A stretch of DNA of 64,000 nt from an uncultured Ignavibacteriaceae bacterium (GCA_964362905.1 CAYIHQ010000001.1:65163-129162), one strand, 5' to 3'; counted from the first letter of the stretch, positions 16,230-57,441 are shown. Translations and numbers: made by a program. Notes: generated from the letters alone by a model not told the origin.

Positions 16230-16537
16230 GGCTTGCGCTCCTCGGCCGGCGGCGGCACACCGATCCAGGTCTTGACGATGATTGAGTCGTGCCCGTCCGT
16301 TGCGCCGTCCGTCTCGTTCCAGGCAATCAGCTCGACGCGGCAGAAGCCCTTGGGCTCCTCGGGATTGGGGTCCTCGGGGGCGACGCACTTCGCGCGCCAT
16401 AGGCGCTCGCTGCGCTCTGGGTCCTGGTCCGGCGCCGGACCCGTCACCTCGATCCAGCCCTCGGATTGGCACGCCGGGCAGCGGCCCCAATCCTCGATGC
16501 GCTGCCGCTCGTCGGCAGCCTCCTCGTAGGTCGTCAC
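16226..16537 (-). CDS. Hypothetical protein (103 aa)
   Basis: The GTG at 16537 forms a GTGA overlap with the stop of 16534..17433. Sequence VTTYEEAADERQRIEDWGRCPACQSEGW. Confidence 0.45.
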   Translation of the reverse strand: MTTYEEAADERQRIEDWGRCPACQSEGWIEVTGPAPDQDPERSERLWRAKCVAPEDPNPEEPKGFCRVELIAWNETDGATDGHDSIIVKTWIGVPPPAEERKP

Positions 16538-17433: not shown

Positions 17434-18440
17434 GGTCGGTACCCTCCCGCGAACCCGCGGGCCGGGTCGCCGTAGCGGTCGACCAGCTCGGCCGCCGGAC
17501 CCTCGCCGCGCAGGAACGCGGCGACCTGGTCTGGGCTCGCGCAGCCGAGCACCACCTTGACGCGCTCGCCCGCGCGGACTGCCGGTGTAGCCAGGTAGGC
17601 CACGCCGAGGAGGCACGCTGCCTCCGGCAGCTCGGGGATGTCGCGGGCGCGCGCATCCCGCACCCCAGCCCAGATGTCGCGCATGAGCAACGATACTCGC
17701 GGCACCGAGCGCAGTGCCTCCTGTGCGGCCGCCACGTCGGCCAGCACGGACTCGACGGTCCGCTTCTGGTGCGCCGCGCGCGATACCGCGCGCCATTGCA
17801 GCAGCGCGACTAGACCCACGCCTGGGCACTTACCCCGGCAGGCCGCGCCGAGGCAGTGGTCGGCCGCAGCGGTGAGCACTAGGTCGTGCGGCACGCGCGC
17901 GATCACGTCGGGGGCCACGTAGACCCACCAGTCTGGGTCGTCCGCGCCCGGCGCGGTGTACGGCGCCACGAGCGCGCCGGGGACGCCGGCCACCATCCAC
18001 GGTAGCCGCTCCCAGGTCAGCAGGCCGAGCCGCGCCAGGTGCGCGATGACCTGGCCGATCGAGCTGCCGGCCAGGAACTCGGCCGGCGGCCGGCCGTAGC
18101 CGGGATCGCCGGGCCGGTGGTGGTCGATCACCACCACCTCGCTCTGCCCGAGCTGCGCGGCCTGCTTCAGGGAGCAGTCGGGGTGCCAAGAGCACTCCAC
18201 GCGGTAAACCGTCCCGTAGGTCGATGGGTCAGCCGCCGTCTCACCGCTCAGCAACGCCGCGATTGCTAGCGTCGAATCAACGAGGTGAGGCGGGTCAGCC
18301 TGATAGGCCGTCTCCGCCGTCACACGCCTGCCGGCCTTCGTGGCGTACTCCACGGGCTCACCGGCGGCGCGCAGCAGCGCCTCGATAGCCGCCATCTCGG
18401 GGTCTGGCGCCCCGAGCACCCACAGGGTAGGAGCGCTCAC
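17430..18440 (-). CDS. DHH-like phosphoesterase candidate (336 aa)
   Basis: GTG at 18440 (GTGA overlap with the upstream stop). VVVIDHHRPGDPGYG followed by GSSIGQVIAHLARLG resembles DHH motif III and its downstream helix. N-terminal LGAPDPEMAAIEALL could be a degenerate motif I. The functional call is tentative. Confidence 0.4.
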   Translation of the reverse strand: MSAPTLWVLGAPDPEMAAIEALLRAAGEPVEYATKAGRRVTAETAYQADPPHLVDSTLAIAALLSGETAADPSTYGTVYRVECSWHPDCSLKQAAQLGQSEVVVIDHHRPGDPGYGRPPAEFLAGSSIGQVIAHLARLGLLTWERLPWMVAGVPGALVAPYTAPGADDPDWWVYVAPDVIARVPHDLVLTAAADHCLGAACRGKCPGVGLVALLQWRAVSRAAHQKRTVESVLADVAAAQEALRSVPRVSLLMRDIWAGVRDARARDIPELPEAACLLGVAYLATPAVRAGERVKVVLGCASPDQVAAFLRGEGPAAELVDRYGDPARGFAGGYRP

Positions 18441-34971: not shown

Positions 34972-35618
34972 GGCAGCTCCTCCGCCTCCAGGCAGACCGG
35001 ATGCTCGTCGTCGGGCTGGATCCACTTCCGCAGCTCCGCGATGGCCCACTCGCGCTCGGGGTGCTGCCACGTCGCCCACTGGTCCCAGCACCAATCGGTG
35101 CGTCGGCCAATGAAGGCAGCCAGCATCTGCCTCGGCTCGGTGTCCGCGGCAAGCCAGAGAATCTCCGAAAGGAGCGCATGGCTGGCCCACGCCAGTTTCG
35201 CGCCGCGCAGGTAGGCGCCGCGCAGGTAGGCGCCGCGCAGGTAGGCGTCGCTCAGGTCGGCGCCGCTCAGGTCGGCGCCGCGCAGGTAGGCGTCGCTCAG
35301 GTCGGCGCCGCGCAGGTAGGCGTCGCTCAGGTAGGCGCCGCTCAGGTAGGCGCCGCTCAGGTCGGCGCCGCTCAGGTCGGCGCCGCGCAGGTAGGCGTCG
35401 CTCAGGTAGGCGCCGCGCAGGTAGGCGCCGCTCAGGTAGGCGCCGCGCAGGTCGGCGCCGCTCAGGTAGGCGTCGCTCAGGTCGGCGCCGCGCAGGTCGG
35501 CGCCGCTCAGGTAGGCGCCGCGCAGGTCGGCGCGAAGCGACTCGTCAAGCGCAGGCACCGGCGTGCCTGGTGCCGTCGCGCGGCACGCCGCCGCGAAGGC
35601 TTCGAGCCGTGCCTTCAC
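34968..35618 (-). CDS. Pentapeptide-repeat protein (216 aa): 23 consecutive A[DY]L[RS][GD] units plus a Trp-rich C-terminal domain
   Basis: A GTG at 35618 forms a GTGA overlap with the stop of 35615..35830. Repeats read [20 protein letters not shown] ... AKLAW. Confidence 0.85.
35187..35531 (-). repeat. 23 tandem 15-bp units (consensus ggcgccgcgcaggta / ggcgccgctcaggtc on the plus strand) encoding the pentapeptide repeats
   Basis: Directly visible periodicity in the sequence from about 35190 to 35530. Units differ at only 2-4 positions. Confidence 0.9.
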
Positions 35619-35830
35619 GGCAGCGCCTCCCGGACCGCGCGTGCGCCGGCGTGGTCGTAGTGCCGCAGATCGCGCAGGAGCCGCGCCAGCACTGCGCGCT
35701 GCTCGGGCTGGCGCAGGAACTCGGGGCTCGCGAGCCGAATCGCCAGCAGCATGCGCGCTGTGCGCGAACGCCAGGTCTGCGCACAGCGCGCGCGATGCTC
35801 GGCGCGCACGACGGCGGAGAGAGTAGTCAC
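35615..35830 (-). CDS. Hypothetical protein (71 aa)
   Basis: The ORF in this frame reads as real protein ([31 protein letters not shown]). The overlapping N-terminus of track ORF 34968..35987 is junk-like. Confidence 0.5.
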
Positions 35831-36027
35831 GACTTACCCCCGTGCGCGCGGAGCAGATCGTCGTCGAGTGGGAGCGCGTCGTCGAACGGCCGCATTGCAA
35901 AGGGATCATCACCTGGCGAGGGTGAACGACGCTCCGTCTCAGCCGCGCACTCCCGCGCATCCCCTTGCAGATGCGCAAGCCGCGCAACCTGCCTAGCCAG
36001 CTCGACGTAGACCTTGATGGTTTCCAT
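35827..36027 (-). CDS. Hypothetical protein (66 aa), first gene of an operon
   Basis: Met-39 ([10 protein letters not shown]) of track ORF 35827..36141. The ATG lies 6 nt after the TGGTATCCT element. Confidence 0.5.
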
Positions 36028-39247: not shown

Positions 39248-42200
39248 TCACCCGCTGCACGCCCCTACCGATGCCCCACAGCCGGGGCACACAAAGCACT
39301 TGCCGTCCCGCTGTGTCACACTCCCACAGGCACTGCATAGAGGGCTGCTGCTCCCCTCAACACGCAGAGCCGCTACCACGGGAATGCGCTCCGGGGCAAG
39401 CACATGGATCTCCTGCGTTCGATCGCAGAACTTCACATCTAGGAACCGCGCGAGGTAATCCAGCACGCTGGAGCACATACGCAGCTCGGGCTGCTGCTTG
39501 GTATCCGTGAAACCGAAGGGAGGAAAACGACTGTGCCGAAACTTCTCCGTGATCGCAGCCACGGGTACCCCATACTGGAGTGCCAAGCTCACCGCGATGG
39601 CCAGCCCATCCATCAAGCCCCCGACAGTGGAACCCTCTTTGGCCATCCGGATAAAGACCTCCCCCGGGCTACCGTCCTGATAGCACCCCACATGCAGATA
39701 TCCCTTGTGGTCCCCTCCATTCACCCCATCGTGGATGACAAAGCGATGACGGATGGCACTGCATTCCTGGGGGAGCGGCCGACGGGCTGGAGCCGTCGCC
39801 ACCTCCTCTACCTCTGCCTTGGCCTTCTCTGACGCATTGGACGCTGAGTAGGGCTCGACGGACTTGCAGCCATCACGATAGACTGCCACGCATTTTAGGC
39901 CCATCTTCCACCCCTCAATATACACCCGCTCGATGTCCTCCACCGATGCCGTAGATGGGAGATTGATGGTCTTGGAGATCGCTCCGGAGAGGTAGGGCTG
40001 CGCAGCGGTCATCATGCTCAGGTGTGCTCGATAGGGCAGCGTGCGACCACCGGGACTCGCGGCCATCGAGCAGTCGAAGACTGGCAAATGCTCATCCTTG
40101 AGCGCGCTACCCTCGATCCCCCCTGTGGTCTCGATATGCAGCAGGATGGCCTTGATCTGAGCAGAAGCATAGCCCAGAGAAGTCAGTGCGAGGTGTACAT
40201 GGGGATTGACCATCTTCATCACGCCACCGCCGCTGAGCTTCTTGTACTTGACAAGGCCAAGCTCGGGCTCGATCCCCGTGGTAGCACAGTCCATCATAAA
40301 CGCGATGGTCCCCGTAGGTGCAAGTAGAGTAAGCTGCGCATTGCGCAGACCCTGGGTCTCAAGACCCTTGAGAACGTCACTCCACAAGCTGCTGGCTCGT
40401 TCCCTCGCCACACCATTTCCAGGGATTCCAGGGAGCCACCTGCGGTGCGCTTCGATCACACTCCGTTGATGCTCCTCATTTCCATTCAAGCCCTCGTAGG
40501 CGCCCATGATAGACGCGAGATGCTGGGACTGGCTGAAAGCAGCCGCAGACATCAGCGCCGTCACCCCGCTGCACAAATCCATAGCCTGCGGTGACCCATA
40601 GGGAATCCCTTGCACAAGCAGCAGACTCCCGAGGTTCGCATAGCCCAGACCCAAGGGTCGGAATCTGTGCGACATCTCCCTGATCTTCTCCGTGGGGTAG
40701 CCACTCATCCCCACAATGATATCCATGGCCAAGATGAACGTGCGAACAGCGGCCTCGAAGCGATCGACTTGGAATGTCTCACCATTCCAGAACGCCATCA
40801 GGTTCAAGCTGGCCAGGTTGCACGATGTCTCATCGAGGAAGACGAACTCGGAGCAGTTGTGAACGACTAAGCCATTGGCCACAAAGTGGTGCGTAGCCAT
40901 CTCTCGGAGGTCAAATACATCCTCCTCTCCCAGAGGCGTGATCTCCACAATTTCGTCTGAGAGTTCATCCTTGTAGGCACCAAACTGACTATTCACTTCC
41001 TGAAGAGCCGCAGCCTTTGGGCTCGCAGGATCAAAGCCGATCTCTCTCTGGAAGATGAATCTCGACGAGCGACTGATTCGCAGGGAGTGCATCTCTCGAA
41101 CTGGATAGAGCTTCTTTCCACCACGCCCATCGGGGAGTAGTGCCTCAGTGCTCCCACCACGACGTTCCGTGTACAATTTCGATTTGATACCGAAACCAAG
41201 GAGCAGCAATTGCACCTGCTTCAGCAAGTCCAGCGATGTTGAGTCTAGAGAAACATAGAAGGTACCGTTGCCACGGGAGTCCCCCACAGTACCATCTGTA
41301 GTGAAGAGTCCTCGAAGAACAGTAGCTAGTGTCGGCTTGTCCAGATCGAAGACGGTGGGCTTGAACTTCTTTCCCTGGCTACCCTCATCCAGTACCGCAA
41401 ACTCCTTGAACAGATCAACAACACACTGAGCCCCAAGTGGGAGGCGCGAAATGCCACCACTCGTGACAACCTGTGAAGCCCTGGCCGAGCCAACAGAACC
41501 CACAGCACGACGAAGCTGTTTCTCCTCACGCGCCATCTCAGAAATGCGGATCAAGATATCAGCATGTTGAGCAGAGGTAACCAGTACAACTTGTTCGCGG
41601 GCTCTACCATCAATGATTGAGCGAGTTAGGCACCCGTCGCCAACAGCGACCCCGATAGCCAGAGCCAGGTTCTCTCCCAGAGCGCGACGACCAAAGCCAG
41701 GGCCGACCAGCTTCAGCTTCTCGCCAATCTTCAAGTCTCTAACCGGAGTGTCACCCCTTTCCAGAGACCACACCAAGTGATCCTCAGTGATCTGAACCTC
41801 GTAGCCAGCACGAGTCCGCAGATTGAAAACCTTCTTGCGACCCGTAGGGAACACTTCGGTAACAAGATGGGGTTGTCCATCAAGACCAACCACATGCACC
41901 GTTTTCCCGACTAGATCATCAATCCTTCGCCAGCCCTCATCAGTAGCAACCAAAGTGCTACCAACAACGCACGGATTAGTACCCCAGATACGATCTGTAG
42001 CTTTGCTGGGGTTCATCCGCTGGATCTCCCCATCGTACTGTATCCCCGGATCCCCACATACCCATGCACTTTGCGCCATCGCCCGTAGCACCTCCCGAGC
42101 GCTAAGCGAAGCCAGGGGCTTCCCATGACGGTCTAGAACCTCGTAGCTCTCGTCATTCTTAGCCGCCCGCATGAACTCGTCAGTGACCCGGACCGAGATG

Positions 42201-43000
42201 TTGGAGTTCTGAAAATGCACACTGCTGTAGGCCCCACCGTTTACACCCCCGTCGTAGCCAGCGCGCAGCAGCGCCTTAGCCTTGGCTTCCTCTGTCACCT
42301 TGCAGGCAATGAACTCCATGATATCCGGATGCGTCACATCCAGAATCTGCATCTTGGCCGCGCGCCGAGCAACTGACCCACTCTTTATCACCTCGGCCAC
42401 GGCATCATAGATGCGCATGAAAGAGATAGGCCCAGAGGAGTTCGTGTTGGTGCCCGCGATGCGCTCCTTGCTACTTCGCAGCCTCGATAGGTTACTCCCT
42501 GCACCGGCCCCCGCCTTGAAGATCCTTGCCTCTCGCTGCGCCAAGTCCATGATGGACTCAATAGAATCCTGCACAGAGTTGATGAAGCACGCGCTGCAAA
42601 CGGGATTGTCCTTGCGCCCCACGTTGAACCAGACAGGACTATTGAAAGTCCCATACTGATGCAGTATCAGCCAGGCTAGATCGGCCTCGAAGTCCGCAGC
42701 AGCCTCCGCAGTGAAGTACCCTTGAGCAAGCCCACTACAAGTGATTGCGTTGACTACCCGCGAAACAAGCTGACGTACAGAGAACTCCCTCTCTGGGCTC
42801 CCCGTATCACCCGCGAAGTACTTGTGGGCGACGATGGTACATGCTTGCTGTGTCCAGAACGTGGGTGCCTCGACACCCAGTTGCTCGAACACGCGGCCTT
42901 CCGAGGAGTCGATCACGACATCACGAGAAGACCATTTCACGGAGTCATAGGCCGAGCCCTGCTCACAGAACTTTCGCGTGTACGGGACTGTGGACATCAC
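39248..43000 (-). CDS. nrdJ: Class II (adenosylcobalamin-dependent) ribonucleotide reductase NrdJ, with an intein
   Basis: 1250-aa ORF. The N-terminus VKWSSRDVVI..LGVEAPTFWTQQACTIVAHKYF is typical of NrdJ. The active-site NPC(S)E is restored on intein removal (GTNP|CSEF). C-terminal Cys cluster CSACG..CFVCPGCG. The start is GTG 43000 or ATG 42997. Confidence 0.9.
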   Translation of the reverse strand: MMSTVPYTRKFCEQGSAYDSVKWSSRDVVIDSSEGRVFEQLGVEAPTFWTQQACTIVAHKYFAGDTGSPEREFSVRQLVSRVVNAITCSGLAQGYFTAEAAADFEADLAWLILHQYGTFNSPVWFNVGRKDNPVCSACFINSVQDSIESIMDLAQREARIFKAGAGAGSNLSRLRSSKERIAGTNTNSSGPISFMRIYDAVAEVIKSGSVARRAAKMQILDVTHPDIMEFIACKVTEEAKAKALLRAGYDGGVNGGAYSSVHFQNSNISVRVTDEFMRAAKNDESYEVLDRHGKPLASLSAREVLRAMAQSAWVCGDPGIQYDGEIQRMNPSKATDRIWGTNPCVVGSTLVATDEGWRRIDDLVGKTVHVVGLDGQPHLVTEVFPTGRKKVFNLRTRAGYEVQITEDHLVWSLERGDTPVRDLKIGEKLKLVGPGFGRRALGENLALAIGVAVGDGCLTRSIIDGRAREQVVLVTSAQHADILIRISEMAREEKQLRRAVGSVGSARASQVVTSGGISRLPLGAQCVVDLFKEFAVLDEGSQGKKFKPTVFDLDKPTLATVLRGLFTTDGTVGDSRGNGTFYVSLDSTSLDLLKQVQLLLLGFGIKSKLYTERRGGSTEALLPDGRGGKKLYPVREMHSLRISRSSRFIFQREIGFDPASPKAAALQEVNSQFGAYKDELSDEIVEITPLGEEDVFDLREMATHHFVANGLVVHNCSEFVFLDETSCNLASLNLMAFWNGETFQVDRFEAAVRTFILAMDIIVGMSGYPTEKIREMSHRFRPLGLGYANLGSLLLVQGIPYGSPQAMDLCSGVTALMSAAAFSQSQHLASIMGAYEGLNGNEEHQRSVIEAHRRWLPGIPGNGVARERASSLWSDVLKGLETQGLRNAQLTLLAPTGTIAFMMDCATTGIEPELGLVKYKKLSGGGVMKMVNPHVHLALTSLGYASAQIKAILLHIETTGGIEGSALKDEHLPVFDCSMAASPGGRTLPYRAHLSMMTAAQPYLSGAISKTINLPSTASVEDIERVYIEGWKMGLKCVAVYRDGCKSVEPYSASNASEKAKAEVEEVATAPARRPLPQECSAIRHRFVIHDGVNGGDHKGYLHVGCYQDGSPGEVFIRMAKEGSTVGGLMDGLAIAVSLALQYGVPVAAITEKFRHSRFPPFGFTDTKQQPELRMCSSVLDYLARFLDVKFCDRTQEIHVLAPERIPVVAALRVEGSSSPLCSACGSVTQRDGKCFVCPGCGASVGACSG
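40856..41971 (-). mobile_element. Intein (372 aa) with a LAGLIDADG homing-endonuclease domain, inserted at the catalytic Cys of NrdJ
   Basis: Begins CVVGSTLVATDEGW (Cys1) and ends FVANGLVVHN, followed by the +1 Cys (CSEF). LAGLIDADG-type blocks LALAIGVAVGDGCL and LRGLFTTDGTV. Coordinates derive from residues 344-715 of the ORF. Confidence 0.85.
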
Positions 43001-50950: not shown

Positions 50951-51494
50951 TCATACCAGCACCCTCTCGCCTGTACAGAAGGAGTAGCCGGCCGTCTTGA
51001 CACCCGGGCGGCCGACGATGATGGAGTCCGCCATGTCGATGCCGAACATCTCAGCCGCAGCCCGGATTCGTTCGGTGCAGACCTCATCATCCGGTGAGGG
51101 GGTCACGTCGCCGCTGGGGTGGTTGTGCGCCACGATGAACCCTGGCGCGGCGAGCACGATCGCCGGCCGCAGCACGTCGGCGGGGCGGCACAGAGAAGCG
51201 GTCGGCGTGCCACGAGACACGATCTGCGTACCGATCAGGTTGCGCCGCACGTCGACTCCACGTAATGTACACGCAGAGCTGCCCACCATACATGCTCTTG
51301 AAGTACCCTACATGCCGATCGCCGGCCATCGTCAGCCCCTGAGACGGGTGGCATGCGTATCCCAGGGCTTGCTCCAGAGCTAGTAGACTTTCGCGGCGTA
51401 TGTGCCGCAGAAAGGTCTTTCGCGCGATGCCTCTTCCCCGTTGAATCATATCACGGAGAGAAGCAACATCCGGGCAGTTGAATTGGTAGGTCAT
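50951..51494 (-). pseudogene. RadC-like JAB/MPN (JAMM) protein with an apparent +1 frame break between the N-terminal region and the JAB core
   Basis: The JAB core VDVRRNLIGTQIVSRGT..GFIVAHNHPSGDVTPSPDDEVCTERI..DSIIV is in ORF 50951..51289. A protein-like N-terminus (MTYQFNCPDVASLRDMIQRGRGIARKTF..) is in ORF 51087..51494, whose last ~65 codons are Arg/Ala/Pro junk. The ORFs overlap by about 200 nt. Confidence 0.55.
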
Positions 51495-52612
51495 CAGACG
51501 ACCTTGACCCGAGTAAGCACGGTCTGCCGAATCCCCTCCCAGGAATCGTGCTTCTTGACGGTGGCCTTGACCGCTACAAAATCCGAATCCGACCAGAAGG
51601 GCGATTTCTCATCGTAGGCCGGATCGTTGCTCGCCCACCACACGAAGGAGTGATGAACCTCGTCCTCGAAGGCGCAGCGGTAGGACGGGCCGTAGCTGCC
51701 CTCGAAAGCCCGCTTGTTGACGAGCCGCAGCCGCAGGCTCAGCCGCTGCCCGGGCGCACCAACCCACTCCGGGTTGGCCATCTTCCGAGCGAACTCCTTG
51801 CGCTGAAGAGTCTCCTGCTCGCGCCGATAGCTCGCCAGGAGAGAGACGGTCAGGCCCAGGTTCTCCGCGCCCACCGTATCCTGGCAAGCGATCGCAGCCA
51901 GATTGGCCAGATAGGTCGTGGGATTGTCGGTCCCGAGGTTGCGCGCCCAGGCCAGAGCCGCATCCACCTCGGTCTCCAGCTTCTCCGTCAGACGACCCTG
52001 CACGCGCTCCGCCCACGCGAGGTACTCGGCACTCGCACTCTTTTGCAGGGGAGGATGGAGCAGCCTGTCTACGCCATTGGCAGTAGACGGCTTCAGGCAC
52101 TCCTGGGAGACCTTTTTGGATACCCATCCCTCCTCGTCGATCACTGCCCCAGAGAGCAGCACGACGTAGCGCACGTCGAGCACGGCACGGCCACCGACAC
52201 CACCGAACGTGGGCTCGTAGCCCGTCTCTTCCTCGCGGAAGGCATCTAGACCCCACACGTAGGCGATCAGACCCCCGGGAGAGAGCTTGGTCGATCCGAG
52301 GAAATCCGCCAGGCACTGGCGCCCGACCTGGACCACCCGGCCGTCCTCCGCCTGGAGGATGAAGGTCTCCGCCCGGCGGCGAGCCTTCTGGCAGTGGTCG
52401 CAGATCGAGCCACGGTCGCGCTGATCCGCCGGGACCACTTGCCCAGGGACTTCCCGGATGATGGGGAGCTGGTCCCGGAGGGAGACCACACCCAGGAGCG
52501 CCCAGCCCCCAGGAAGACGGGGCGAGCGGCCCGAGATCGTCACCTCGACGAAGGGCTCACGGATGATCCGCACGAGCCGGAGAGAACAGCGCATAACTCG
52601 ACTGCGCTGCAT
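51494..52612 (-). CDS. Hypothetical protein (~372 aa)
   Basis: Track ORF 51494..52750; start uncertain (52750, 52612 or 52594). Contains ICDHCQKARRRAETFILQAEDGRVVQVGRQCLADFLG. Family not recognised. Confidence 0.55.
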   Translation of the reverse strand: MQRSRVMRCSLRLVRIIREPFVEVTISGRSPRLPGGWALLGVVSLRDQLPIIREVPGQVVPADQRDRGSICDHCQKARRRAETFILQAEDGRVVQVGRQCLADFLGSTKLSPGGLIAYVWGLDAFREEETGYEPTFGGVGGRAVLDVRYVVLLSGAVIDEEGWVSKKVSQECLKPSTANGVDRLLHPPLQKSASAEYLAWAERVQGRLTEKLETEVDAALAWARNLGTDNPTTYLANLAAIACQDTVGAENLGLTVSLLASYRREQETLQRKEFARKMANPEWVGAPGQRLSLRLRLVNKRAFEGSYGPSYRCAFEDEVHHSFVWWASNDPAYDEKSPFWSDSDFVAVKATVKKHDSWEGIRQTVLTRVKVV

Positions 52613-52731
52613 GGTGACCGAGGCGCGCGCTACATCGCCCGGTGCCGCGCATGCGATACCTACACCTCGGCCACGTTCGCGGGGCGCTACCTGGTCGGTG
52701 GATCGGGCGGTTCGTCCCGCTCCGGGTACGC

Positions 52732-52896
52732 CTACATCCCTTCGCGCCACCCGAGTGTGGTAGGCGGCCCACGCCAGATGCAGACAGCCACACCGGCGGC
52801 CGCGCGGATCACCTCATCCGCCTGCGCGGCGTCGGTGGTCGCGATGACCCACTCGACGCCATCCGTCGCAGGGGCATCTGGCCGGAGGCGGAACAT
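52732..52896 (-). CDS. Hypothetical small protein (54 aa)
   Basis: The ATG at 52896 overlaps the upstream TGA by 1 nt (TGATG). Confidence 0.3.
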   Translation of the reverse strand: MFRLRPDAPATDGVEWVIATTDAAQADEVIRAAAGVAVCIWRGPPTTLGWREGM

Positions 52897-53195
52897 CACA
52901 CATCCTCCTCGGCACGCACTGCGCGCGCGGCGGCCGAGTCCCATCCCACCGGCGCCGGGCCGTTACCCTGGAGCGTGCTCGGGCCTGCTACGATCGCCCG
53001 CCCACCGCCCACGCAGCCCTTCGTGCGCACGCCCGCGCAGCGCGGGTGCGCCACGCCCCAGCGGCTGCCAGCCCGGAGCAACAGGGTGTCGGCCAGCTCG
53101 AACGAGCGGTCGCCCGTTTGGGACTCGCAGACCACACACCGGCCTGCGAACTTCACCCCCAGACGGTTCACCGTCCAAGTCGTCGTGGTTTCCAT
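52896..53195 (-). CDS. Hypothetical protein (99 aa), first gene after the terminator
   Basis: The ATG lies 7 nt after the TGCTACACT element. Confidence 0.45.
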   Translation of the reverse strand: METTTTWTVNRLGVKFAGRCVVCESQTGDRSFELADTLLLRAGSRWGVAHPRCAGVRTKGCVGGGRAIVAGPSTLQGNGPAPVGWDSAAARAVRAEEDV

Positions 53196-53202
53196 GGGCA
53201 GA

Positions 53203-53211
53203 AGTGTAGCA
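53203..53211 (-). promoter_or_regulatory. Extended -10-like element TGCTACACT, 7 nt upstream of ATG 53195
   Basis: The minus strand reads TGCTACACT-TCTGCCC-ATG, immediately after the terminator T-tract. Confidence 0.4.
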
Positions 53212-53220
53212 CAAAGAAGG

Positions 53221-53256
53221 CGAAAAAAGAAGCGAAAAACTCAGCGCTTTGCTGAG
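53221..53256 (-). terminator. Rho-independent terminator after the XRE regulator gene
   Basis: The minus-strand RNA is CUCAGC-AAAGC-GCUGAG followed by UUUUUCGCUUCUUUUUUCG. The hairpin includes the stop codon at 53241-53243. Confidence 0.5.
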
Positions 53257-53591
53257 ACCTCCAGGGTACGCGCAAACTCCAGGAGTAGGCGCTGATCTCT
53301 ATCCCGAAGACGCACGAAGAAGCGCAGCAGATGCTGACGCGCATCAGAAAAGCCGAAGGCGTCGATCGCACGTAGACCAAGGAGATAATCCGTAGTCACA
53401 CCAAGAGCCGATGCCAGCAAGATGAGATTGGAGAGCGAGGGTAGGCGCCGCCCCGTCTCGAAGTTGGAGATGGCACATGCGGGTCTCAAACCTGTCTTCC
53501 GCGACAGCTCTGCCTGCGTGTAGCCCCGCAGCTCTCGCGCATTACGCAGATTCTTCGCAAAAACCACCTTGTCCAGTTTCTTCATCGTCAC
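53241..53591 (-). CDS. XRE-family helix-turn-helix transcriptional regulator
   Basis: LRNARELRGYTQAELSRKTGLRPACAISNFETGRRLPSLSNLILLASALGVTTDYLLG is a canonical Cro/C1-type HTH. Confidence 0.8.
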   Translation of the reverse strand: MTMKKLDKVVFAKNLRNARELRGYTQAELSRKTGLRPACAISNFETGRRLPSLSNLILLASALGVTTDYLLGLRAIDAFGFSDARQHLLRFFVRLRDRDQRLLLEFARTLEVSAKR

Positions 53592-53597
53592 ACCACA

Positions 53598-54152
53598 TTA
53601 TCCCACGTAGAGGTAGACAAAAATCGAAGGGGTGTGAGTAAAGCTCTCACAACCGGACAGGAGGGCTCTCACAACGATGGGCTCTACCTCATTCCAGTTT
53701 AGTCTCCCGAGCCCGCAGCCAAGACGAGGGATCGCAATGGAACTCAGCTTATAGTGGTGAAGAGCAGCCACCAGGGAGACCATACCGCTCTCGATGTAAT
53801 CCAGCCGAGAGGGCTGCTTCCAATACTGCTTCGTCGGGAAGTTGATGACAAAACGAGGAAGTACCCCTGTCTCATAGGTCTCGAAGACAAAGCACTTTCC
53901 TGGCACAATCTCACCACGTTTACACGCCGCTACGTAGGCCCTGTAGTTCGCCGGCCACGCCTTCTTGAACTGAGCGGCTAGCCCCTTCCCAGCGACCCCC
54001 ACGCAGTTCACGGGATTGACAATGGCTTCGACGCATTGAGCCCCAAGGAGGTCACCTGAGATGTGGGAGATGCAAGCTACGGACACCGGGAGCACCCCCT
54101 CCGCATCACGTAGGAGCCAGGATGCCGAAGGCACTCCTCGGGCTGTCGGCAC
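53598..54152 (-). CDS. Macrodomain protein (ADP-ribose binding/hydrolase)
   Basis: GDLLGAQCVEAIVNPVNCVGVAGKGLAAQFKKAWP and FVINFPTKQYWKQPSRLDYIESGMVSL..IAIPRLGCGLGRLNW are typical of stand-alone macrodomains of the TARG1/DarG-like kind. The start may be GTG 54086 rather than ATG 54152. Confidence 0.8.
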   Translation of the reverse strand: MPTARGVPSASWLLRDAEGVLPVSVACISHISGDLLGAQCVEAIVNPVNCVGVAGKGLAAQFKKAWPANYRAYVAACKRGEIVPGKCFVFETYETGVLPRFVINFPTKQYWKQPSRLDYIESGMVSLVAALHHYKLSSIAIPRLGCGLGRLNWNEVEPIVVRALLSGCESFTHTPSIFVYLYVG

Positions 54153-54745
54153 GTCCCACCTTGGTCGGCCACAGCAGCGAGTGCATCCTCACCCGTACAG
54201 ATACTATCATCTCCGCCGGGAGCAACGAGAGCGATCAGATCAGCTAGGGTAAAGACCAGCTCATCCACCATGGGCAGTCCAACAGAGGGATCCCCTGGAA
54301 TATGCACATGCCAGCGGGGGACGCGACGATACACCAATTCCATCCAGCCATCACCGATGTAGACGCAACCATGCTCTTCCCCCTGCACCTCTTCACAGAG
54401 AGGGCATTCCTCTTCCTCGATCCTGCCACTATTACTCCAGGGGCAGTCTCTCTCGCCGGAGTGGGTGTACCCCCTCACGCGGACCCAGCGTGCGTCCTCG
54501 AAATCCACGATCTCCGGGGCAAGATCACCAAACAGAGCGTCGTAGTAGATCGTGCGGAAATCCCCCTCATAGTCGCGGAACTCGCTCTCCACATAGTCCG
54601 GAACACCCTCATTCCACAGCGGTACCTCCATGGCGCTGCTGTCGTAGGGACCACGCGGCCCCTTGATCGACCAGGGAGTGTCCGCGAAATCGTCCACACC
54701 GAAGACGTGCGCGATTCGCGCAAGTTCTTGACTGTTGAACGTCAT
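54077..54745 (-). CDS. Strongly acidic hypothetical protein (222 aa)
   Basis: Met-17 (MTFNSQ) of the track ORF, directly after the upstream stop. Asp/Glu-rich runs: ESEFRDYEGDF, EIVDFEDARW, IEEEECPLCEEVQGEE. Confidence 0.55.
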   Translation of the reverse strand: MTFNSQELARIAHVFGVDDFADTPWSIKGPRGPYDSSAMEVPLWNEGVPDYVESEFRDYEGDFRTIYYDALFGDLAPEIVDFEDARWVRVRGYTHSGERDCPWSNSGRIEEEECPLCEEVQGEEHGCVYIGDGWMELVYRRVPRWHVHIPGDPSVGLPMVDELVFTLADLIALVAPGGDDSICTGEDALAAVADQGGTCRQPEECLRHPGSYVMRRGCSRCP

Positions 54746-55035
54746 CGCTGTCCCTCCGTCACTGCGGGTAGCACCCAGGGTATCACCCACCAACGCTCAC
54801 CATCTCCACGCAGGTAGCCATCGTCTCGCAGCATGACAAAACCCAGCTTCGCCAGGCTGCGTGCTGTGCGTACCTTGTGTGCGCGCACATAGATCCCACC
54901 CTGCCGACGCACTTCCTTCAGAAGGCTGCGTTGTGCTACCGAAAGCCCCTTCACGACGCATCCTCCTGCGTCGTCGCACCCTCGATTGCCTCCACGATGG
55001 TCGAGGTAGCTCGTTGTTTTCGTGCTGCTTTCCAT
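54742..55035 (-). CDS. Small basic protein (97 aa), possibly winged-helix
   Basis: Met-65 (MESSTK) of track ORF 54742..55227. The ATG lies 7 nt after TGGTAGTCT. LSVAQRSLLKEVRRQGGIYVRAHKVRTARSLAKLGFVMLRDDG looks wHTH-like. Tentative. Confidence 0.5.
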   Translation of the reverse strand: MESSTKTTSYLDHRGGNRGCDDAGGCVVKGLSVAQRSLLKEVRRQGGIYVRAHKVRTARSLAKLGFVMLRDDGYLRGDGERWWVIPWVLPAVTEGQR

Positions 55036-55042
55036 GTGCAAC

Positions 55043-55071
55043 AGACTACCAGAAAAGGAGCTGTCCCCTAG
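55043..55071 (-). promoter_or_regulatory. Promoter-like element CTAGG-N15-TGGTAGTCT, 7 nt upstream of ATG 55035
   Basis: The minus strand reads AAAAACTTCTAGGGGACAGCTCCTTTTCTGGTAGTCT-GTTGCAC-ATG. Divergent partner of the element at 55114..55122. Confidence 0.45.
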
Positions 55072-55113
55072 AAGTTTTTGGAAAAGTTTCTCTACTCTCA
55101 CCACCCTTCCGCA

Positions 55114-55122
55114 TGGTAGGCT
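55114..55122 (+). promoter_or_regulatory. Extended -10-like element TGGTAGGCT, 7 nt upstream of ATG 55130
   Basis: The plus strand reads TGGTAGGCT-CATCCGG-ATG. Confidence 0.4.
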
Positions 55123-55129
55123 CATCCGG

Positions 55130-55567
55130 ATGATCGCGGACATCGTGCGACGGATCCTACTTGCTCGCCACTCGGGGGACGCCCGAGCGGAGAGCGTGGC
55201 CACCACCTGGCTACTCCTGGAACACACCTATTGGGTGAGGGGGCTCAGAGGAGCATGGCACCTGGCTACTCACGCCCACCCCCTCGCCACTGAGCACTAC
55301 CGAGTGACCGTGCTCCGGGGCACCGTGGCAGAGCCAGCTATCTGGTATCCCCTACGACTTCGGGAGCGCAGCATCTTCCGTGACTCTGCGAGCACCGCCG
55401 CCTACGGAACGGTGGCAAAACGAGTCAACTTGCAGCGGGCACAAGAAGCATTCGAGAACATACGAATGGCATTCCAGCTCCAAGACCGGGACATTCTGCG
55501 GTATCACCCATCATCCCATCTTGAGGGTATGCTGTTTCAGTCGTTGGAAGCGGAACTGACAGCATAG
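55130..55567 (+). CDS. Hypothetical protein (145 aa), first plus-strand gene
   Basis: Met-37 (MIADIVRRIL) of track ORF 55022..55567. The ATG lies 7 nt after TGGTAGGCT. Confidence 0.5.
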   Translation: MIADIVRRILLARHSGDARAESVATTWLLLEHTYWVRGLRGAWHLATHAHPLATEHYRVTVLRGTVAEPAIWYPLRLRERSIFRDSASTAAYGTVAKRVNLQRAQEAFENIRMAFQLQDRDILRYHPSSHLEGMLFQSLEAELTA

Positions 55568-55569
55568 TT

Positions 55570-55663
55570 GTTTCGTTACTTAGTCTTGTGGGGTTCTATG
55601 AATCCAAACGCGAAGAAAGTTCGCGGACTCCGCAGAAACCCCAGAGAACTAAGAGACGAAAAC
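55570..55663 (+). other. Long imperfect inverted repeat (arms ~28 and ~30 nt, 36-nt spacer with its own cgcgaa/ttcgcg hairpin); candidate structured RNA
   Basis: The left arm gtttcgttacttagtcttgtggggttct is compared with the reverse complement of the right arm, gttttcgtctcttagttctctggggtttct. It starts 3 nt after the stop of 55130..55567. Confidence 0.5.
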
Positions 55664-55678
55664 AAATGGCAGATGGAG

Positions 55679-55699
55679 GAGAGAGAGAGAGAGAGAGAG
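55679..55699. repeat. (GA)10 microsatellite in the intergenic region
   Basis: Read directly: ggaggagagagagagagagagagagt. Confidence 0.9.
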
Positions 55700-55811
55700 T
55701 CCTTTTCGTCTTAGAAAGTAGGTGGATCCGCTACTTGAAATCGTCGTGATGTACATTCGGGCGCTACAATCATACTCCTGCTAATGCTCCAAGAGCGGGG
55801 GAAGCAAACCA

Positions 55812-56282
55812 ATGCGCTTTTTCATGCTGCGTAAGGCCGCTAGGCGGAGTCGCATTCTTCAGCACCGCCAAGCAGGTCAGTATGCAGTGTTTTCCGCTGA
55901 GAAACGATACTGGCCAAAGAAGGAAAACTGGAGGCGTAAGAAGAAGCTAGTAAAAGAGCTTCGCCGTATCGGATTTGGATTCAAACGAGTAGTTGGTAGG
56001 GGGCAGGAAGATGAAGGCGGCAAAAAAGTAGTCAATCTCGAACGCTCAGTCTTCGTCCCCCACATGCGAAGGACTACAGCCCATAGGCTGGCCAAGCATT
56101 ATCGTCAGGACTACATGGTGCATGGCAACAAGGGAGTTGCCCATCTTATCCATGTGCCTTCGGGGCGAACGGAACTCACTTGGAAGACCCTGAAGATGAC
56201 CCCTGCAAAGTTCGACTCCCTCGTTCGTGGGTGGAGCAAGAAGCTGCGGCAAAAAGGTCATCACGCGTACCACCAAGAATGA
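55812..56282 (+). CDS. Arg/Lys-rich protein (156 aa)
   Basis: ORF with GGGGGAAG upstream. Contains MRFFMLRKAARRSR..WRRKKKLVKELRR. Confidence 0.55.
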   Translation: MRFFMLRKAARRSRILQHRQAGQYAVFSAEKRYWPKKENWRRKKKLVKELRRIGFGFKRVVGRGQEDEGGKKVVNLERSVFVPHMRRTTAHRLAKHYRQDYMVHGNKGVAHLIHVPSGRTELTWKTLKMTPAKFDSLVRGWSKKLRQKGHHAYHQE

Positions 56283-56842
56283 CCAACTCTTTGTGCCTAC
56301 TGCCGCTGCTTCTGGCAGCATGCTCGTGCTCGTGGGGGCGCGTGGAGACACAAGTACAGGACGACGGGCTAGGCCTCATCGAGATCGAGGGCGGGGGCCA
56401 GCCGGTCGCCGAGCTGCCAGTCCACACCTATGGCTTCATCGACGCCTTCTCCGACGGAGCCCACTTCGGGCGGGGCAACATGCGCGCGGACCTGTGGCAT
56501 GGCCTCGGGCCAGTCGTGGAGGCGCAGATCGCCGGCCGAGACGAGACCGCGCGCGGCGGGCTGGCCTACTGGCCAGAGCTACCGATCGCCGTGGCTGTCG
56601 GCACGCACGCGACCATCGACAACGACGGCGAGCCGCAGGTGCGAGTGATGTGGGAAAGTCTCGATCTCTTCACCACCTTCTCCTGCGGAGGCTTCCTAGA
56701 CCAGAACTTCCCGGGCTGGATCGGCGAGGCACAAGTGAGGTACCACGCATGGCGACAAGCGCGACTGCTCGCGGAGATCAACTTGGTAACACCGAGCACA
56801 GACGACTGGTTCTTCGGAGTGGGTGTCCAATGGGCGTGGTGA
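56279..56842 (+). CDS. Lipoprotein, possibly an outer-membrane beta-barrel (187 aa)
   Basis: Met-34 of the track ORF forms an ATGA overlap with the upstream stop. MTNSLCLLPLLLAACS has a canonical lipobox (LAAC). The aromatic C-terminus is GVGVQWAW. Confidence 0.6.
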   Translation: MTNSLCLLPLLLAACSCSWGRVETQVQDDGLGLIEIEGGGQPVAELPVHTYGFIDAFSDGAHFGRGNMRADLWHGLGPVVEAQIAGRDETARGGLAYWPELPIAVAVGTHATIDNDGEPQVRVMWESLDLFTTFSCGGFLDQNFPGWIGEAQVRYHAWRQARLLAEINLVTPSTDDWFFGVGVQWAW

Positions 56843-57441
56843 AGCTCTGCCCCGTCGCCGATGCAACGGCGACGTACACGACGCTTATAGCGGTGGCATG
56901 CGCCTACTACCTCACAGCCACGATCGGCTTGACATTCGCCGTCCCACCTGGCTACGCCACCCTACTCTGGCCTCCGGCCGGGATCGCGCTGGGTGCCGCC
57001 TATGTATGGGGCTGGAAAGCCGCGTTGGCCGCGGGGTTCGGCAGCTACATGGCCAACCTCTGGGTGCCAAGCGCCACAGATCGTGCGATGGTGGTCTTGG
57101 CTGGAGCCTTGCCGGCAGTAGGTGCCGTTGTGCAATCTTGGGTTGGGGCGGTCCTGCTGCATCGCTATTGCGATCGCGATCTGCGCCGTTGGTCCGCATC
57201 CAATGTTGTACGCTACGCGCTGGTGACCATTGCGAGCTGCACAATCAATGGGGTCTGGGGACCAGCTAGCCTTTCGTTCGCTGGATTCATGGATCAGAGC
57301 ACAATAGCACACAACATCCAAACATGGTGGCTCGGCGACTGCCTCGGTGCGCTCGTCTTTGCCCCGCTGCTGATCTTTTTGGTGGGGGAGACACCTGTGC
57401 ATGGCAGAGAACAACGGCAAGAAGCTCGTCCTGAGTCGTGA
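56830..57441 (+). CDS. MASE1-like integral membrane sensor domain protein (203 aa), with no output domain
   Basis: Met-202 of track ORF 56227..57441. ATLLWPPAGIALGAAYVWGWKAALAAGFG plus several further hydrophobic helices resemble MASE1. Confidence 0.55.
   Translation: MGVVKLCPVADATATYTTLIAVACAYYLTATIGLTFAVPPGYATLLWPPAGIALGAAYVWGWKAALAAGFGSYMANLWVPSATDRAMVVLAGALPAVGAVVQSWVGAVLLHRYCDRDLRRWSASNVVRYALVTIASCTINGVWGPASLSFAGFMDQSTIAHNIQTWWLGDCLGALVFAPLLIFLVGETPVHGREQRQEARPES

What the first reader, a model, noticed from the sequence alone, without database searches (positions are those of the whole stretch)
53221..55071. Self-contained four-gene unit: small basic wHTH-like protein, very acidic protein, macrodomain and XRE regulator, bounded by a promoter and a terminator
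**Layout.** A promoter-like element at 55043..55071 sits 7 nt from the ATG at 55035. It is followed without gaps by four genes:
- A 97-aa basic protein.
- A 222-aa Asp/Glu-rich protein (ESEFRDYEGDF, EIVDFEDARW, IEEEECPLCEEVQGEE).
- A clear macrodomain (IVNPVNCVGVAGKGLAAQFKKAWP, INFPTKQYWKQPSRLDYIESG, RLGCGLGRLNW).
- A Cro/C1-type HTH protein.

A hairpin plus U-tract terminator at 53221..53256 closes the unit.

**Known biology.** Macrodomains remove or bind ADP-ribose. DarG-type macrodomains reverse DarT ADP-ribosylation of DNA. Anti-defence genes followed by an HTH autoregulator is the typical acr-aca layout.

**Inference.** This is a candidate anti-defence cassette. The macrodomain would counter ADP-ribosylation-based or ADP-ribose-derived-signal immunity. 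The acidic protein may be a DNA mimic.
Basis: partly seen in the sequence, partly recalled or inferred. Interest (0 to 1): 0.7.

Follow-up and report, generated by a model that had tools for sequence, protein, structure and literature searches.

The report
Phage operon with orphan DarG macrodomain
An uncultured T4-like groundwater phage carries a tightly packed four-gene operon whose clearest member is a stand-alone copy of the bacterial DarG antitoxin enzyme, most likely used to strip defensive ADP-ribose marks off phage DNA, a trick already shown for other phages; next to it sits a very acidic zinc-binding protein from an undescribed family of mobile-element proteins.

Summary
The four minus-strand genes exist and are packed like an operon: a 4-nt overlap, a 10-nt overlap and a 6-12-nt gap. 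They start at a divergent intergenic region. They end at the only strict hairpin-plus-T-tract in the 64-kb window.

- **Gene 3** is a DarG2-type macrodomain. It matches the Mtb and Thermus DarG macro structures at E 1e-39, and the residues shown by mutation to matter in Thermus DarG are conserved. It lacks the DarT-binding C-terminal domain, and no DarT is found in the window. It is therefore an orphan antitoxin of the AdfM kind (PhiKZ gp104, published 2026). 286 cultured-phage records carry homologues.
- **Gene 4** is a generic XRE HTH protein.
- **Gene 1** is an ORFan. It probably starts at GTG 54954 (70 aa, perfect AGGAGG), not at ATG 55035. No tool supports the wHTH call.
- **Gene 2** belongs to an unannotated family. 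Members are acidic (median pI 4.35) and carry a C3H zinc motif. They occur in phage and conjugative-element accessory regions. The N-domain models confidently but matches no known fold.

In 29 other loci checked, gene 2 relatives never neighbour a macrodomain, an XRE or gene 1. The proposed promoter is unsupported. The anti-DarT reading is well supported but already known. The DNA-mimic and acr-aca ideas remain untested.

The parts
54955..55129 (.). Divergent intergenic region between gene 1 (minus strand) and a 145-aa plus-strand ORF (55130-55567). This is the likely promoter and operator region of the operon.
   Evidence: ORF map and pipeline gene calls. The 145-aa ORF shows a coding-type GC1/2/3 pattern. 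No sigma-70 consensus hit in the region.
55043..55071 (-). Not supported as a sigma-70 promoter.
   Evidence: The consensus scan found 0 promoter-like sites in 52500-56000. The adjacent 20-mer is unique in the window.
55070..55091 (.). Imperfect palindrome AGAAACTTTT-CC-AAAAACTTCT (8 of 10 arm positions complementary) in the AT-rich part of the intergenic region. Candidate operator.
   Evidence: Palindrome search. Sequence. Function is inferred only.
54953..54974 (.). Perfect 8-bp inverted repeat ACGACGCA-GGAGGA-TGCGTCGT. Its loop is the AGGAGG Shine-Dalgarno of gene 1 and its 3' arm reaches the GTG start. Candidate operator or translational hairpin.
   Evidence: My own estimate is about 0.05 such perfect 8-bp repeats expected by chance in a 200-nt region.
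54742..54954 (-). Gene 1: small basic ORFan protein. 70 aa from GTG 54954; the alternative ATG 55035 gives 97 aa with pI 10.0.
   Evidence: AGGAGG lies 7 nt upstream of the GTG. Pipelines aa. GC1/2/3 is 0.73/0.48/0.61 for the 70-aa part and 0.56/0.59/0.59 for the extra 27 codons. No family, PDB or phage hit.
54077..54745 (-). Gene 2: 222-aa acidic protein. The conserved N-terminal domain (about residues 5-145) carries a putative C3H zinc site (C101, C114, C117, H125). The C-terminal region (150-222) is variable, models with low confidence and is Cys-rich.
   Evidence: pI 4.39. 199 distant relatives by exhaustive phmmer and 134 clusters by profile search. Conservation. AF2 with MSA gives pLDDT above 90 for most of residues 1-145. 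No Pfam, PHROG, PDB or BFVD match.
53598..54086 (-). Gene 3: 162-aa stand-alone DarG2-type macrodomain (AdfM-like orphan antitoxin). Predicted ADP-ribosyl-DNA glycohydrolase.
   Evidence: Pfam Macro 1.8e-21. PDB 5m3i and 5m31 at 1e-39. NCBIfam DarG 7e-56, N-terminal part only, 190 bits against a cut-off of 250. PADLOC DarG 1.7e-57. 30% identity to PhiKZ AdfM with its catalytic Asn conserved. Functional residues conserved.
53241..53591 (-). Gene 4: XRE/Cro-C1-type HTH protein. 114 aa from ATG 53585, or 116 aa from GTG 53591, with a helical C-terminal extension of about 45 aa.
   Evidence: HTH_3 2.6e-14. phrog_8 transcriptional regulator 8e-18. PADLOC capH 1e-13 over its full length. Best PDB hit is the ICEBs1 Xre-family regulator 7t8i.
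53213..53256 (-). Intrinsic-terminator-like element. A 6-bp hairpin (53256-53240) overlaps the gene 4 stop codon and is followed by TTTTTCGCTTCTTTTTTCGCCTTCTTT.
   Evidence: Scan hit. Unique in the 64-kb window under strict criteria, and the only window this T-rich. The MFE structure contains the hairpin.

Best explanation
The region is an accessory operon of an uncultured T4-like phage. It is transcribed leftward from the divergent intergenic region at 54955-55129 and mostly terminates at the hairpin plus T-tract at 53256-53213.

- **Gene 3, the functional core.** It is a stand-alone copy of the macrodomain of the bacterial antitoxin DarG2. During infection it most likely removes ADP-ribose from thymidines that a host DarT2 toxin places on single-stranded phage DNA, which restores replication. 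This is the mechanism shown for phage PhiKZ AdfM. The homology and the conserved active site are shown here. The substrate and the anti-defence role are inferred.
- **Gene 4.** This XRE protein probably binds one of the two palindromes in or next to the promoter region and tunes expression of the operon. This is inferred from gene order only.
- **Gene 2.** It is a member of an undescribed family of acidic, zinc-binding proteins found in phage and conjugative-element accessory regions. It is probably a host- or defence-targeting binding protein. Its link to the macrodomain is co-transcription only, not a conserved partnership.
- **Gene 1.** It is a 70-aa basic ORFan of unknown role.
For: **Phage context.** T4-like portal, class II RNR and gp46/47-like genes are present. 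The source is a 129-kb groundwater metagenome contig.

**Operon anatomy.** Overlapping or abutting genes carry GGAGG-type Shine-Dalgarno sequences. The start is divergent. The terminator is unique in the window.

**Gene 3.**
- It matches DarG macrodomain structures at E 1e-39, at roughly 50% identity as read from the printed alignments. DarG HMMs score 7e-56 and 1.7e-57.
- Thermus DarG N22, K29, K80, W83 and G119 correspond to N27, K34, K86, W89 and the second Gly of LGCGLG.
- PhiKZ AdfM N23 is conserved.
- The isolated macrodomain of Thermus DarG is sufficient as an antitoxin (PMC5179494).
- AdfM removes DarT2 marks and protects PhiKZ (PMC13309987).
- There is no DarT and no DarG C-terminal domain in the 64 kb.
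- 286 cultured-phage records carry homologues, including the tested Erwinia phage Asesino.
- Other orphan DarG-like macrodomains sit in phage-like early regions, next to SocA_Panacea or Lar-like genes.

**Gene 2 family.** Relatives are found in 10 IMG/VR contigs, one of them 436 kb, and in a region with ArdA, DnaJ and SLT genes.
Against: - No experiment or transcript data exist for this phage, and its host is unknown. Whether the host carries DarTG2 cannot be checked.
- Macrodomains of this clade can also act on protein-linked or soluble ADP-ribose. A large survey argued that most phage macrodomains target small ADPr derivatives (PMC9503650).
- Two ADPr-contacting positions differ from Thermus DarG: N120 is Leu and T20 is Pro. 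The Leu variant also occurs in the DarG-like structure 7omu.
- No promoter consensus was found.
- The operators are only palindromes.
- The four-gene combination is seen in one phage only.
Confidence: 0.6

Rival explanations
1. The macrodomain does not act on DNA. It hydrolyses soluble ADP-ribose-derived immune signals or toxic metabolites (Thoeris-type cyclic ADPR isomers, ADPr-1''-phosphate, O-acetyl-ADPr), or it removes ADP-ribose from RNA or protein. In that case it counters defences other than DarTG.
For: [quoted passage not shown]
- The matching PHROG (phrog_335) is labelled 'phosphatase', meaning Appr-1''-p.
- Weaker PDB hits include ADP-ribose 1''-phosphate phosphatase and TARG1/OARD1.
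Against: - Similarity to DarG macrodomains (1e-39) exceeds similarity to Appr-1''-p phosphatases (1e-6 to 1e-7) and to TARG1 (1e-4) by more than 30 orders of magnitude.
- The DarG-specific Trp proposed to stack on thymine (W83) is conserved.
- The only tested phage member of this clade, AdfM, acts on DarT2-modified DNA.
Confidence: 0.2
2. The unit is a phage-borne toxin-antitoxin or defence module. The macrodomain is the antitoxin for a phage-encoded ADP-ribosyltransferase. Gene 2 occupies the position that DarT holds in darTG operons and would be that toxin, used for superinfection exclusion or addiction.
For: - Phages can carry complete DarTG. Thermus phage phiMa has DarT (1.6e-73) immediately upstream of a full-length DarG (5e-124), and that DarG is the closest cultured-phage homologue of gene 3.
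- Gene 2 is 222 aa, which is DarT-sized, and is translationally coupled to the macrodomain.
Against: - Gene 2 has no DarT or ART signal in Pfam, PADLOC or NCBIfam.
- hhalign of the gene 2 family profile against phiMa DarT gives probability 0.2%.
- The structural search finds no ART fold.
- Gene 2 and its family are strongly acidic, with a median net charge of -26. By my own knowledge, that is unlike DNA-binding DarT.
- Gene 2 relatives occur without any macrodomain neighbour in 29 loci.
- No DarT-like sequence is present in the window.
Confidence: 0.05
3. The four genes are unrelated accessory genes that merely share a transcript. The XRE protein is a general phage regulator, such as an early/middle switch or an immunity-type repressor, rather than a dedicated autoregulator. 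Genes 1 and 2 then have nothing to do with defence.
For: - The gene combination is unique to this phage.
- Stand-alone DarG-like macrodomains have varied neighbours.
- The XRE is generic, with its best matches to many repressor families.
- Same-strand genes continue 45 nt after the terminator.
Against: - Translational coupling of genes 1-3 and a unique strong terminator directly after gene 4 suggest a deliberately delimited unit.
- Neighbouring genes have counter-defence flavour by my own knowledge of those families: RadC-like JAB, a DUF3293/SAM-lyase-like protein, and ArdA near gene 2 relatives. This fits an anti-defence island.
Confidence: 0.15

Closest known systems
AdfM (anti-DarT factor macro; PhiKZ gp104 and chimallivirus homologues; Morgan et al., Cell Rep 2026, PMC13309987)
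   Same: Phage-encoded, about 160 aa, a stand-alone DarG2-like macrodomain with no DarT partner and no DarT-binding domain. The catalytic Asn and Lys are conserved. The predicted job is the same: erasing DarT2 marks from phage DNA.
   Different: - Only 30% identical to PhiKZ AdfM. It is closer (about 50-58% identity) to bacterial DarG macrodomains and to a large clade of stand-alone metagenomic macrodomains.
- The phage is T4-like, not a nucleus-forming chimallivirus, so no nuclear import is involved.
- It sits in an operon with an XRE gene and two unknown genes.
- Its activity is untested.
DarG2 antitoxin of the DarTG2 toxin-antitoxin / phage-defence system (Jankevicius et al. 2016, PMC5179494)
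   Same: The macrodomain is homologous over its full length, and the residues needed for thymidine-ADPr hydrolysis are conserved.
   Different: - It lacks the C-terminal DarT-binding domain. It covers 136 of 338 profile positions and scores 190 bits against a cut-off of 250.
- It has no adjacent DarT.
- It is encoded by a virus rather than a host.
AdfN (T4 30.3 and other phage NADAR proteins; orphan DarG1-like antitoxins; Johannesman et al. 2025, PMC11825919)
   Same: The same strategy: a phage co-opts the enzymatic antitoxin of a DarTG system as an orphan counter-defence gene, in that case in T4-like phages.
   Different: The fold differs (NADAR, not macro) and so does the target (guanine-ADPr made by DarT1).
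acr-aca anti-CRISPR operons (anti-defence gene followed by an HTH autorepressor). This comparison rests on my own knowledge, not on a tool result.
   Same: The gene order matches: putative anti-defence genes, then an HTH gene as the last gene of a short operon. Palindromes lie near the promoter and Shine-Dalgarno sequence.
   Different: - No anti-CRISPR gene is present.
- The XRE protein was not compared with any named Aca family, because no such library was available.
- Operator binding and autorepression are untested.
Acidic DNA-mimic anti-restriction proteins (Ocr, ArdA)
   Same: Gene 2 and its family are strongly acidic (pI about 4.4, net charge about -20 to -26). They lie in phage or MGE accessory regions, once near ArdA.
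   Different: - No sequence or fold similarity to ArdA, Ocr or any PDB or BFVD entry.
- The family has sharply conserved motifs and a C3H zinc site. By my own knowledge, that is unlike typical mimics.

Membership tests
DarG2 antitoxin (DarTG2 system) | N-terminal TARG1/DarG-type macrodomain with the catalytic Lys (Taq K80) and the supporting residues N22, K29 and G119 | tested here: met
   PDB 5m3i and 5m31 match at E 1e-39. The residues align to N27, K34, K86 and the conserved Gly. PADLOC DarG scores 1.7e-57.
DarG2 antitoxin (DarTG2 system) | C-terminal DarT-binding domain (full-length protein of about 330-360 aa) | tested here: not met
   The protein is 162 aa. It matches only positions 1-136 of the 338-position NCBIfam profile and scores 190 bits, below the 250-bit cut-off. 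No DarG C-terminal-like sequence is found in the window.
DarG2 antitoxin (DarTG2 system) | Adjacent darT (DUF4433 ADP-ribosyltransferase) gene | tested here: not met
   No DarT hit for genes 1, 2 or 4. The gene 2 family profile against phiMa DarT gives hhalign probability 0.2%. tblastn of DarT against the window finds nothing.
AdfM-type phage orphan macrodomain antitoxin | Phage-encoded stand-alone DarG2-like macrodomain with a conserved catalytic site | tested here: met
   Phage context is shown. BLASTP against PhiKZ gp104 gives E 6e-19 at 30% identity, with N23 conserved. tblastn against cultured phages hits chimallivirus records, including Erwinia phage Asesino, whose AdfM was tested.
AdfM-type phage orphan macrodomain antitoxin | Removes DarT2-made ADP-ribose from ssDNA and protects the phage from DarTG2 | not testable with these tools
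   This needs biochemical and plaque assays. The host is unknown.
acr-aca-type autoregulated anti-defence operon | HTH gene co-transcribed downstream of the anti-defence gene or genes | tested here: met
   The gene order and the 6-12-nt spacing are seen in the sequence, and the terminator follows the HTH gene directly. Co-transcription itself is inferred.
acr-aca-type autoregulated anti-defence operon | Inverted-repeat operator in the promoter, bound by the HTH protein, with autorepression | tested here: inconclusive
   Two palindromes are present, at 54953-54974 (perfect 8 bp) and 55070-55091 (8 of 10). No promoter was located. Binding is not testable here.
   Pfam finds nothing in a scan limited to E 0.1, and only an irrelevant weak hit (E 0.17) in a scan allowing E up to 10. 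PHROGs, NCBIfam and PADLOC find nothing at E up to 0.01, and the PDB sequence search returns no hit better than E = 1.
   No Pfam ArdA or Ocr hit. Foldseek against PDB and BFVD gives a best E of 0.02-0.2 with TM below 0.5. Only the bulk acidity fits. Charge geometry was not analysed.

The most novel reading that the evidence does not exclude
Gene 2 may represent a new, fairly widespread family of phage and mobile-element counter-defence proteins. The family has about 200 clusters at 50% identity, is acidic, has a C3H zinc site, and has a fold with no known relative.

In this phage it could supply in trans what DarG's missing C-terminal domain does, that is, bind and block DarT as a nucleic-acid mimic. 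The operon would then be a split, two-protein anti-DarTG device under XRE control.
Probability: 0.12. Interest if true: 0.65.

Novelty: new member of a known kind. Interest (0 to 1): 0.35.

Why it matters
- **Reach of the strategy.** If the macrodomain works as predicted, the orphan-DarG (AdfM) counter-defence strategy extends from nucleus-forming jumbo phages to a distant T4-like phage from groundwater. It belongs to a very large clade of stand-alone DarG-like macrodomains, with more than 3000 clusters at E below 1e-10. This suggests that DarT2-type DNA ADP-ribosylation is a common pressure in environmental bacteria.
- **The new element.** The gene 2 family is confidently foldable, conserved and exclusive to mobile elements. 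It has no annotation in Pfam, PHROGs, NCBIfam or PADLOC and no structural relative, which makes it a concrete candidate for anti-defence screening.
- **A small test case.** The operon also offers a compact system for asking whether XRE regulators control anti-defence genes outside anti-CRISPR loci.

Tried and rejected
- **Sigma-70 promoter at 55043-55071.** The scan found none. A 20-mer from the element is unique in the window, so it is not a repeated phage promoter motif.
- **Gene 2 as a divergent DarT or ART.** Rejected by HMMs, hhalign and fold search.
- **Gene 2 as the detached DarG C-terminal domain.** No hit to DarG models. tblastn with the phiMa DarG C-terminus finds nothing at gene 2.
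- **Single-sequence AF2 of gene 2.** Useless, with pLDDT 33. An alignment of 117 sequences was needed.
- **Word-indexed homologue search for gene 2.** It found only the query itself. Exhaustive phmmer was needed.
- **Gene 2 relatives in cultured collections.** None in INPHARED phages, PLSDB plasmids or GTDB species genomes.
- **Diverged relatives of this phage or of the whole unit.** The gp46-like protein, gene 1 and gene 3, used as single queries against IMG/VR, gave nothing. The four public copies are 100% identical. No comparative or dN/dS test of gene 1 or of the boundaries was therefore possible.
- **Rfam scan of the whole window at gathering threshold.** No hits.
- **Naive ORF calling of neighbours of gene 2 relatives.** Too noisy in high-GC DNA to use for family enrichment. 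I relied instead on the pre-computed gene calls.
- **capH similarity of gene 4.** PADLOC capH scores 1e-13. I treated this as generic XRE similarity, because it scores no better than Pfam HTH_3. I did not search the window for a CapP-type peptidase partner.
Full report
**What the window is.**
- The 64-kb window comes from an uncultured, roughly 58% GC, distantly T4-like phage.
- It encodes a T4-type portal (Pfam Portal_T4, 1.3e-53), a class II ribonucleotide reductase interrupted by a LAGLIDADG intein, and gp46/gp47-like SbcCD proteins.
- The portal is at most about 30% identical to any cultured phage portal.
- The same DNA occurs on a 129-kb contig from a Hainich groundwater metagenome and in three other sequencing runs, all 100% identical over the compared 4.6-5 kb.
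- Most genes are on the minus strand.

**Checking the observation.**
- The four minus-strand ORFs exist.
- Gene 2 (54077-54745, 222 aa) has pI 4.39, 42 acidic against 18 basic residues, and 9 Cys.
- Gene 3 matches Pfam Macro at 1.8e-21, and gene 4 matches HTH_3 at 2.6e-14.
- Packing is operon-like:
  - The g1 stop and g2 start share ATGA.
  - The g3 GTG at 54086 overlaps the g2 stop by 10 nt.
  - The g4 start lies 6-12 nt after the g3 stop.
  - GGAGG-type Shine-Dalgarno sequences precede g1 (at GTG 54954), g2 and g3.
- Gene 1 needs a correction.
  - ATG 55035 has no Shine-Dalgarno sequence.
  - GTG 54954 has a perfect AGGAGG 7 nt upstream.
  - The GC1/2/3 pattern typical of this phage's genes (high, low, high) holds for the 70-codon part (0.73/0.48/0.61). 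It does not hold for the extra 27 codons (0.56/0.59/0.59).
  - Gene-calling pipelines also chose the 70-aa form.
- The unit therefore begins at a 175-nt divergent intergenic region (54955-55129). On its other side lies a plus-strand 145-aa ORF with a coding-type composition.
The host and its promoter type are unknown, so this is absence of support, not disproof.
  - The hairpin CTCAGC-AAAGC-GCTGAG plus T-tract overlaps the g4 stop codon.
  - Under strict rules it is the only such site on either strand of the 64 kb: six Watson-Crick pairs with at least four G-C, a loop of 3-8, and a T-rich tail.
  - The tract after it is the only 27-nt window with at least 17 T.
- Same-strand genes resume 45 nt downstream: a 99-aa Cys-containing protein, a phrog_2319 protein and a RadC-like JAB. 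'Self-contained' therefore means delimited by signals, not isolated.

**The macrodomain (gene 3).**
- It is unambiguously of the DarG type.
  - The best solved-structure relatives are the macrodomains of M. tuberculosis and Thermus aquaticus DarG (E 1.1e-39 and 2.6e-39, roughly half the aligned residues identical).
  - Appr-1''-p phosphatases (about 1e-6) and TARG1 (about 1e-4) are far behind.
  - NCBIfam's DarG equivalog scores 7e-56 but matches only profile positions 1-136 of 338, and falls below the family cut-off (190 against 250 bits).
  - PADLOC DarG scores 1.7e-57 over positions 2-133 of 329.
- The 162-aa protein is therefore the enzymatic half of DarG without the DarT-binding half.
- I placed the 5m31 alignment on the native numbering of Jankevicius et al. 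The offset of 10 was verified by H82 and W83.
  - The residues whose mutation impaired or killed Thermus DarG are all conserved: N22, K29, G119 and above all K80.
  - W83, proposed to stack on the thymine, is also conserved.
  - The differences at ADPr-contacting positions are T20 to Pro and N120 to Leu. The Leu variant also occurs in the DarG-like structure 7omu.
- Neither DarT nor a DarG C-terminal domain is present anywhere in the window.

**Precedent in the literature.**
- The isolated macrodomain of Thermus DarG suffices as an antitoxin (PMC5179494).
- Phage PhiKZ gp104, named AdfM, is a stand-alone DarG2-like macrodomain. It removes DarT2 marks from DNA, rescues DarT2 toxicity and is needed for infection of DarTG2 strains. 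Homologues occur in about half of chimalliviruses (PMC13309987).
- Gene 3 is 30% identical to AdfM (E 6e-19), with AdfM's catalytic Asn conserved.
- T4-like phages use the analogous NADAR orphan antitoxin AdfN against DarTG1 (PMC11825919).
- Macrodomains are reported in 41% of myoviruses and 56% of jumbo phages (PMC9503650).
- Here, tblastn finds homologues of gene 3 in 286 cultured-phage records.
- The closest of these, Thermus phage phiMa, carries a complete DarT (1.6e-73) plus full-length DarG (5e-124) pair. This shows a plausible route by which phages acquire such genes.
- In metagenomes, stand-alone macrodomains of about 150-180 aa at 50-58% identity are very numerous (3098 clusters at E below 1e-10). 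They sit in two kinds of place:
  - phage-like early regions;
  - bacterial defence islands, next to Cas3 and a WYL regulator, or next to Kiwa, AbiJ and RM genes.
- Gene 3 is therefore a new member of a known kind.

**The acidic protein (gene 2).**
- It has no hit in Pfam, PHROGs, NCBIfam or PADLOC. The word-indexed search found only the query itself.
- Exhaustive phmmer against 1.84 billion representatives found 199 relatives sharing residues about 5-145 at 30-49% identity. A profile search returned 134 clusters. None has a Pfam domain, and any source name given is 'hypothetical protein'.
- The family is defined by these motifs: VFGLTGGEL, YWYxGVPxY, YRT, SSGETECP, CPLCE and HGYIYLGDGWxExVY.
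  - P49, T65, G97 and E98 are invariant.
  - S96, C101, C114, C117, H125, Y129, E136 and Y139 are nearly invariant.
  - I read C101, C114, C117 and H125 as a C3H zinc site. This is an inference.
- Acidity is a family trait. Median pI is 4.35 and median net charge is -26. 109 of 117 conserved domains have a pI below 5.
- With the 117-sequence alignment, AlphaFold2 models residues 1-145 at pLDDT mostly above 90, as a helix followed by a beta-rich domain. Residues 150-222 are low-confidence.
- Foldseek finds nothing significant in the PDB or BFVD. The best E is 0.02-0.2 with TM below 0.5, showing a faint head-tail-adaptor-like barrel resemblance. A profile search of PDB sequences is also empty.
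- Relatives lie on phage contigs (10 IMG/VR loci, including a 436-kb contig). They also lie in runs of small same-strand genes, and in one region with ArdA, a DnaJ-domain protein and a lytic transglycosylase.
- None was found in cultured phages, PLSDB plasmids or GTDB species genomes.
- In the 29 other loci examined, including the closest full-length relative P0137, no gene 2 relative neighbours a macrodomain, an XRE or gene 1.
- Gene 2 is not DarT: hhalign probability is 0.2% against phiMa DarT.
- It is therefore an independent mobile-element accessory protein. A defence- or host-targeting binding role is plausible. 'DNA mimic' is only compatible with its charge.

**Genes 1 and 4.**
- Gene 4 is a standard XRE HTH protein with a C-terminal extension of about 45 residues.
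  - It hits many repressor families: phrog_8, RstR, HipB-type, C-proteins, and PADLOC capH at 1e-13.
  - Its best PDB match is an ICEBs1 Xre-family regulator (7t8i).
- Two palindromes could serve as operators:
  - A perfect ACGACGCA-N6-TGCGTCGT (54953-54974). Its spacer is the g1 Shine-Dalgarno sequence.
  - An imperfect 10-bp repeat (55070-55091) in the AT-rich part of the intergenic region.
- The acr-aca-like logic is thus possible but rests on layout only.
- Gene 1 is a basic ORFan with no detectable relative or domain. The winged-helix label could not be tested.

**Verdict.**
That mechanism is now published for other phages.
- The four genes are not a conserved cassette.
- The unexplored item is the gene 2 family.
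- Overall: a new member of a known kind, of moderate interest.

Noticed in passing
window 55812-56282 (+): A very basic 156-aa protein (pI 11.5) matches DUF3293 (2.8e-7, above the cut-off). It also matches the S-adenosylmethionine lyase family weakly (4.8e-4, below the cut-off). It could be a SAM-lyase-like anti-restriction gene in the block that diverges from the operon.
   Followed up: partly
window 56830-57441 (+) (within ORF 56227-57441): A phage-encoded membrane protein carries a MASE1 sensor domain (1.1e-16). MASE1 is normally the N-terminal sensor of bacterial signalling proteins. Here it appears alone, in a roughly 203-aa gene call.
   Followed up: no
window 50951-53195 (-): The genes just downstream of the terminator have much higher third-position GC (0.78-0.84) than the phage core genes and the four-gene unit (0.58-0.67). 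These are the 99-aa Cys protein, the 418-aa phrog_2319 protein and the RadC-like JAB. This suggests a more recent acquisition from a high-GC source.
   Followed up: partly
window 39248-43000 (-): A class II (B12-dependent) ribonucleotide reductase is interrupted by an intein with a LAGLIDADG homing-endonuclease domain.
   Followed up: no
window 35233-35316 (+) and 16001-18000, 35001-36000: A single tRNA-Leu(CAG) lies in a 1-kb bin of 72.7% GC. Another stretch, at 16-18 kb, reaches 70-75% GC against a background of about 58%.
   Followed up: no
window 55571-55661: A 25-nt inverted repeat (80% complementary, 41 nt between the arms) lies in the gap between the plus-strand 145-aa ORF and the DUF3293 gene. 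It overlaps two minus-strand terminator-like hits at 55634-55609. It could be a bidirectional terminator or a structured RNA. There is no Rfam hit.
   Followed up: no
L043 (Thermus phage phiMa, MH673674.1 26343-28099): This cultured phage carries a complete DarT-DarG toxin-antitoxin pair. It is annotated only as 'hypothetical protein' and 'ADP-ribose 1-phosphate phosphatase related protein'.
   Followed up: yes
L006-L010 (metagenome contigs): Stand-alone DarG-like macrodomains with no DarT sit inside bacterial defence islands. One is beside Cas3 and a WYL regulator. Another follows KwaA, AbiJ and a type I RM specificity (S) subunit gene. They may be orphan antitoxins or host counters to viral ADP-ribosylation.
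   Followed up: partly
L012 and L014 (metagenome contigs): Short (138-139 aa) relatives of gene 2 lie in a conserved gene run with a DnaJ-domain protein, a lytic transglycosylase (SLT) and, in L014, ArdA. The layout looks like a conjugative-element leading region.
   Followed up: partly
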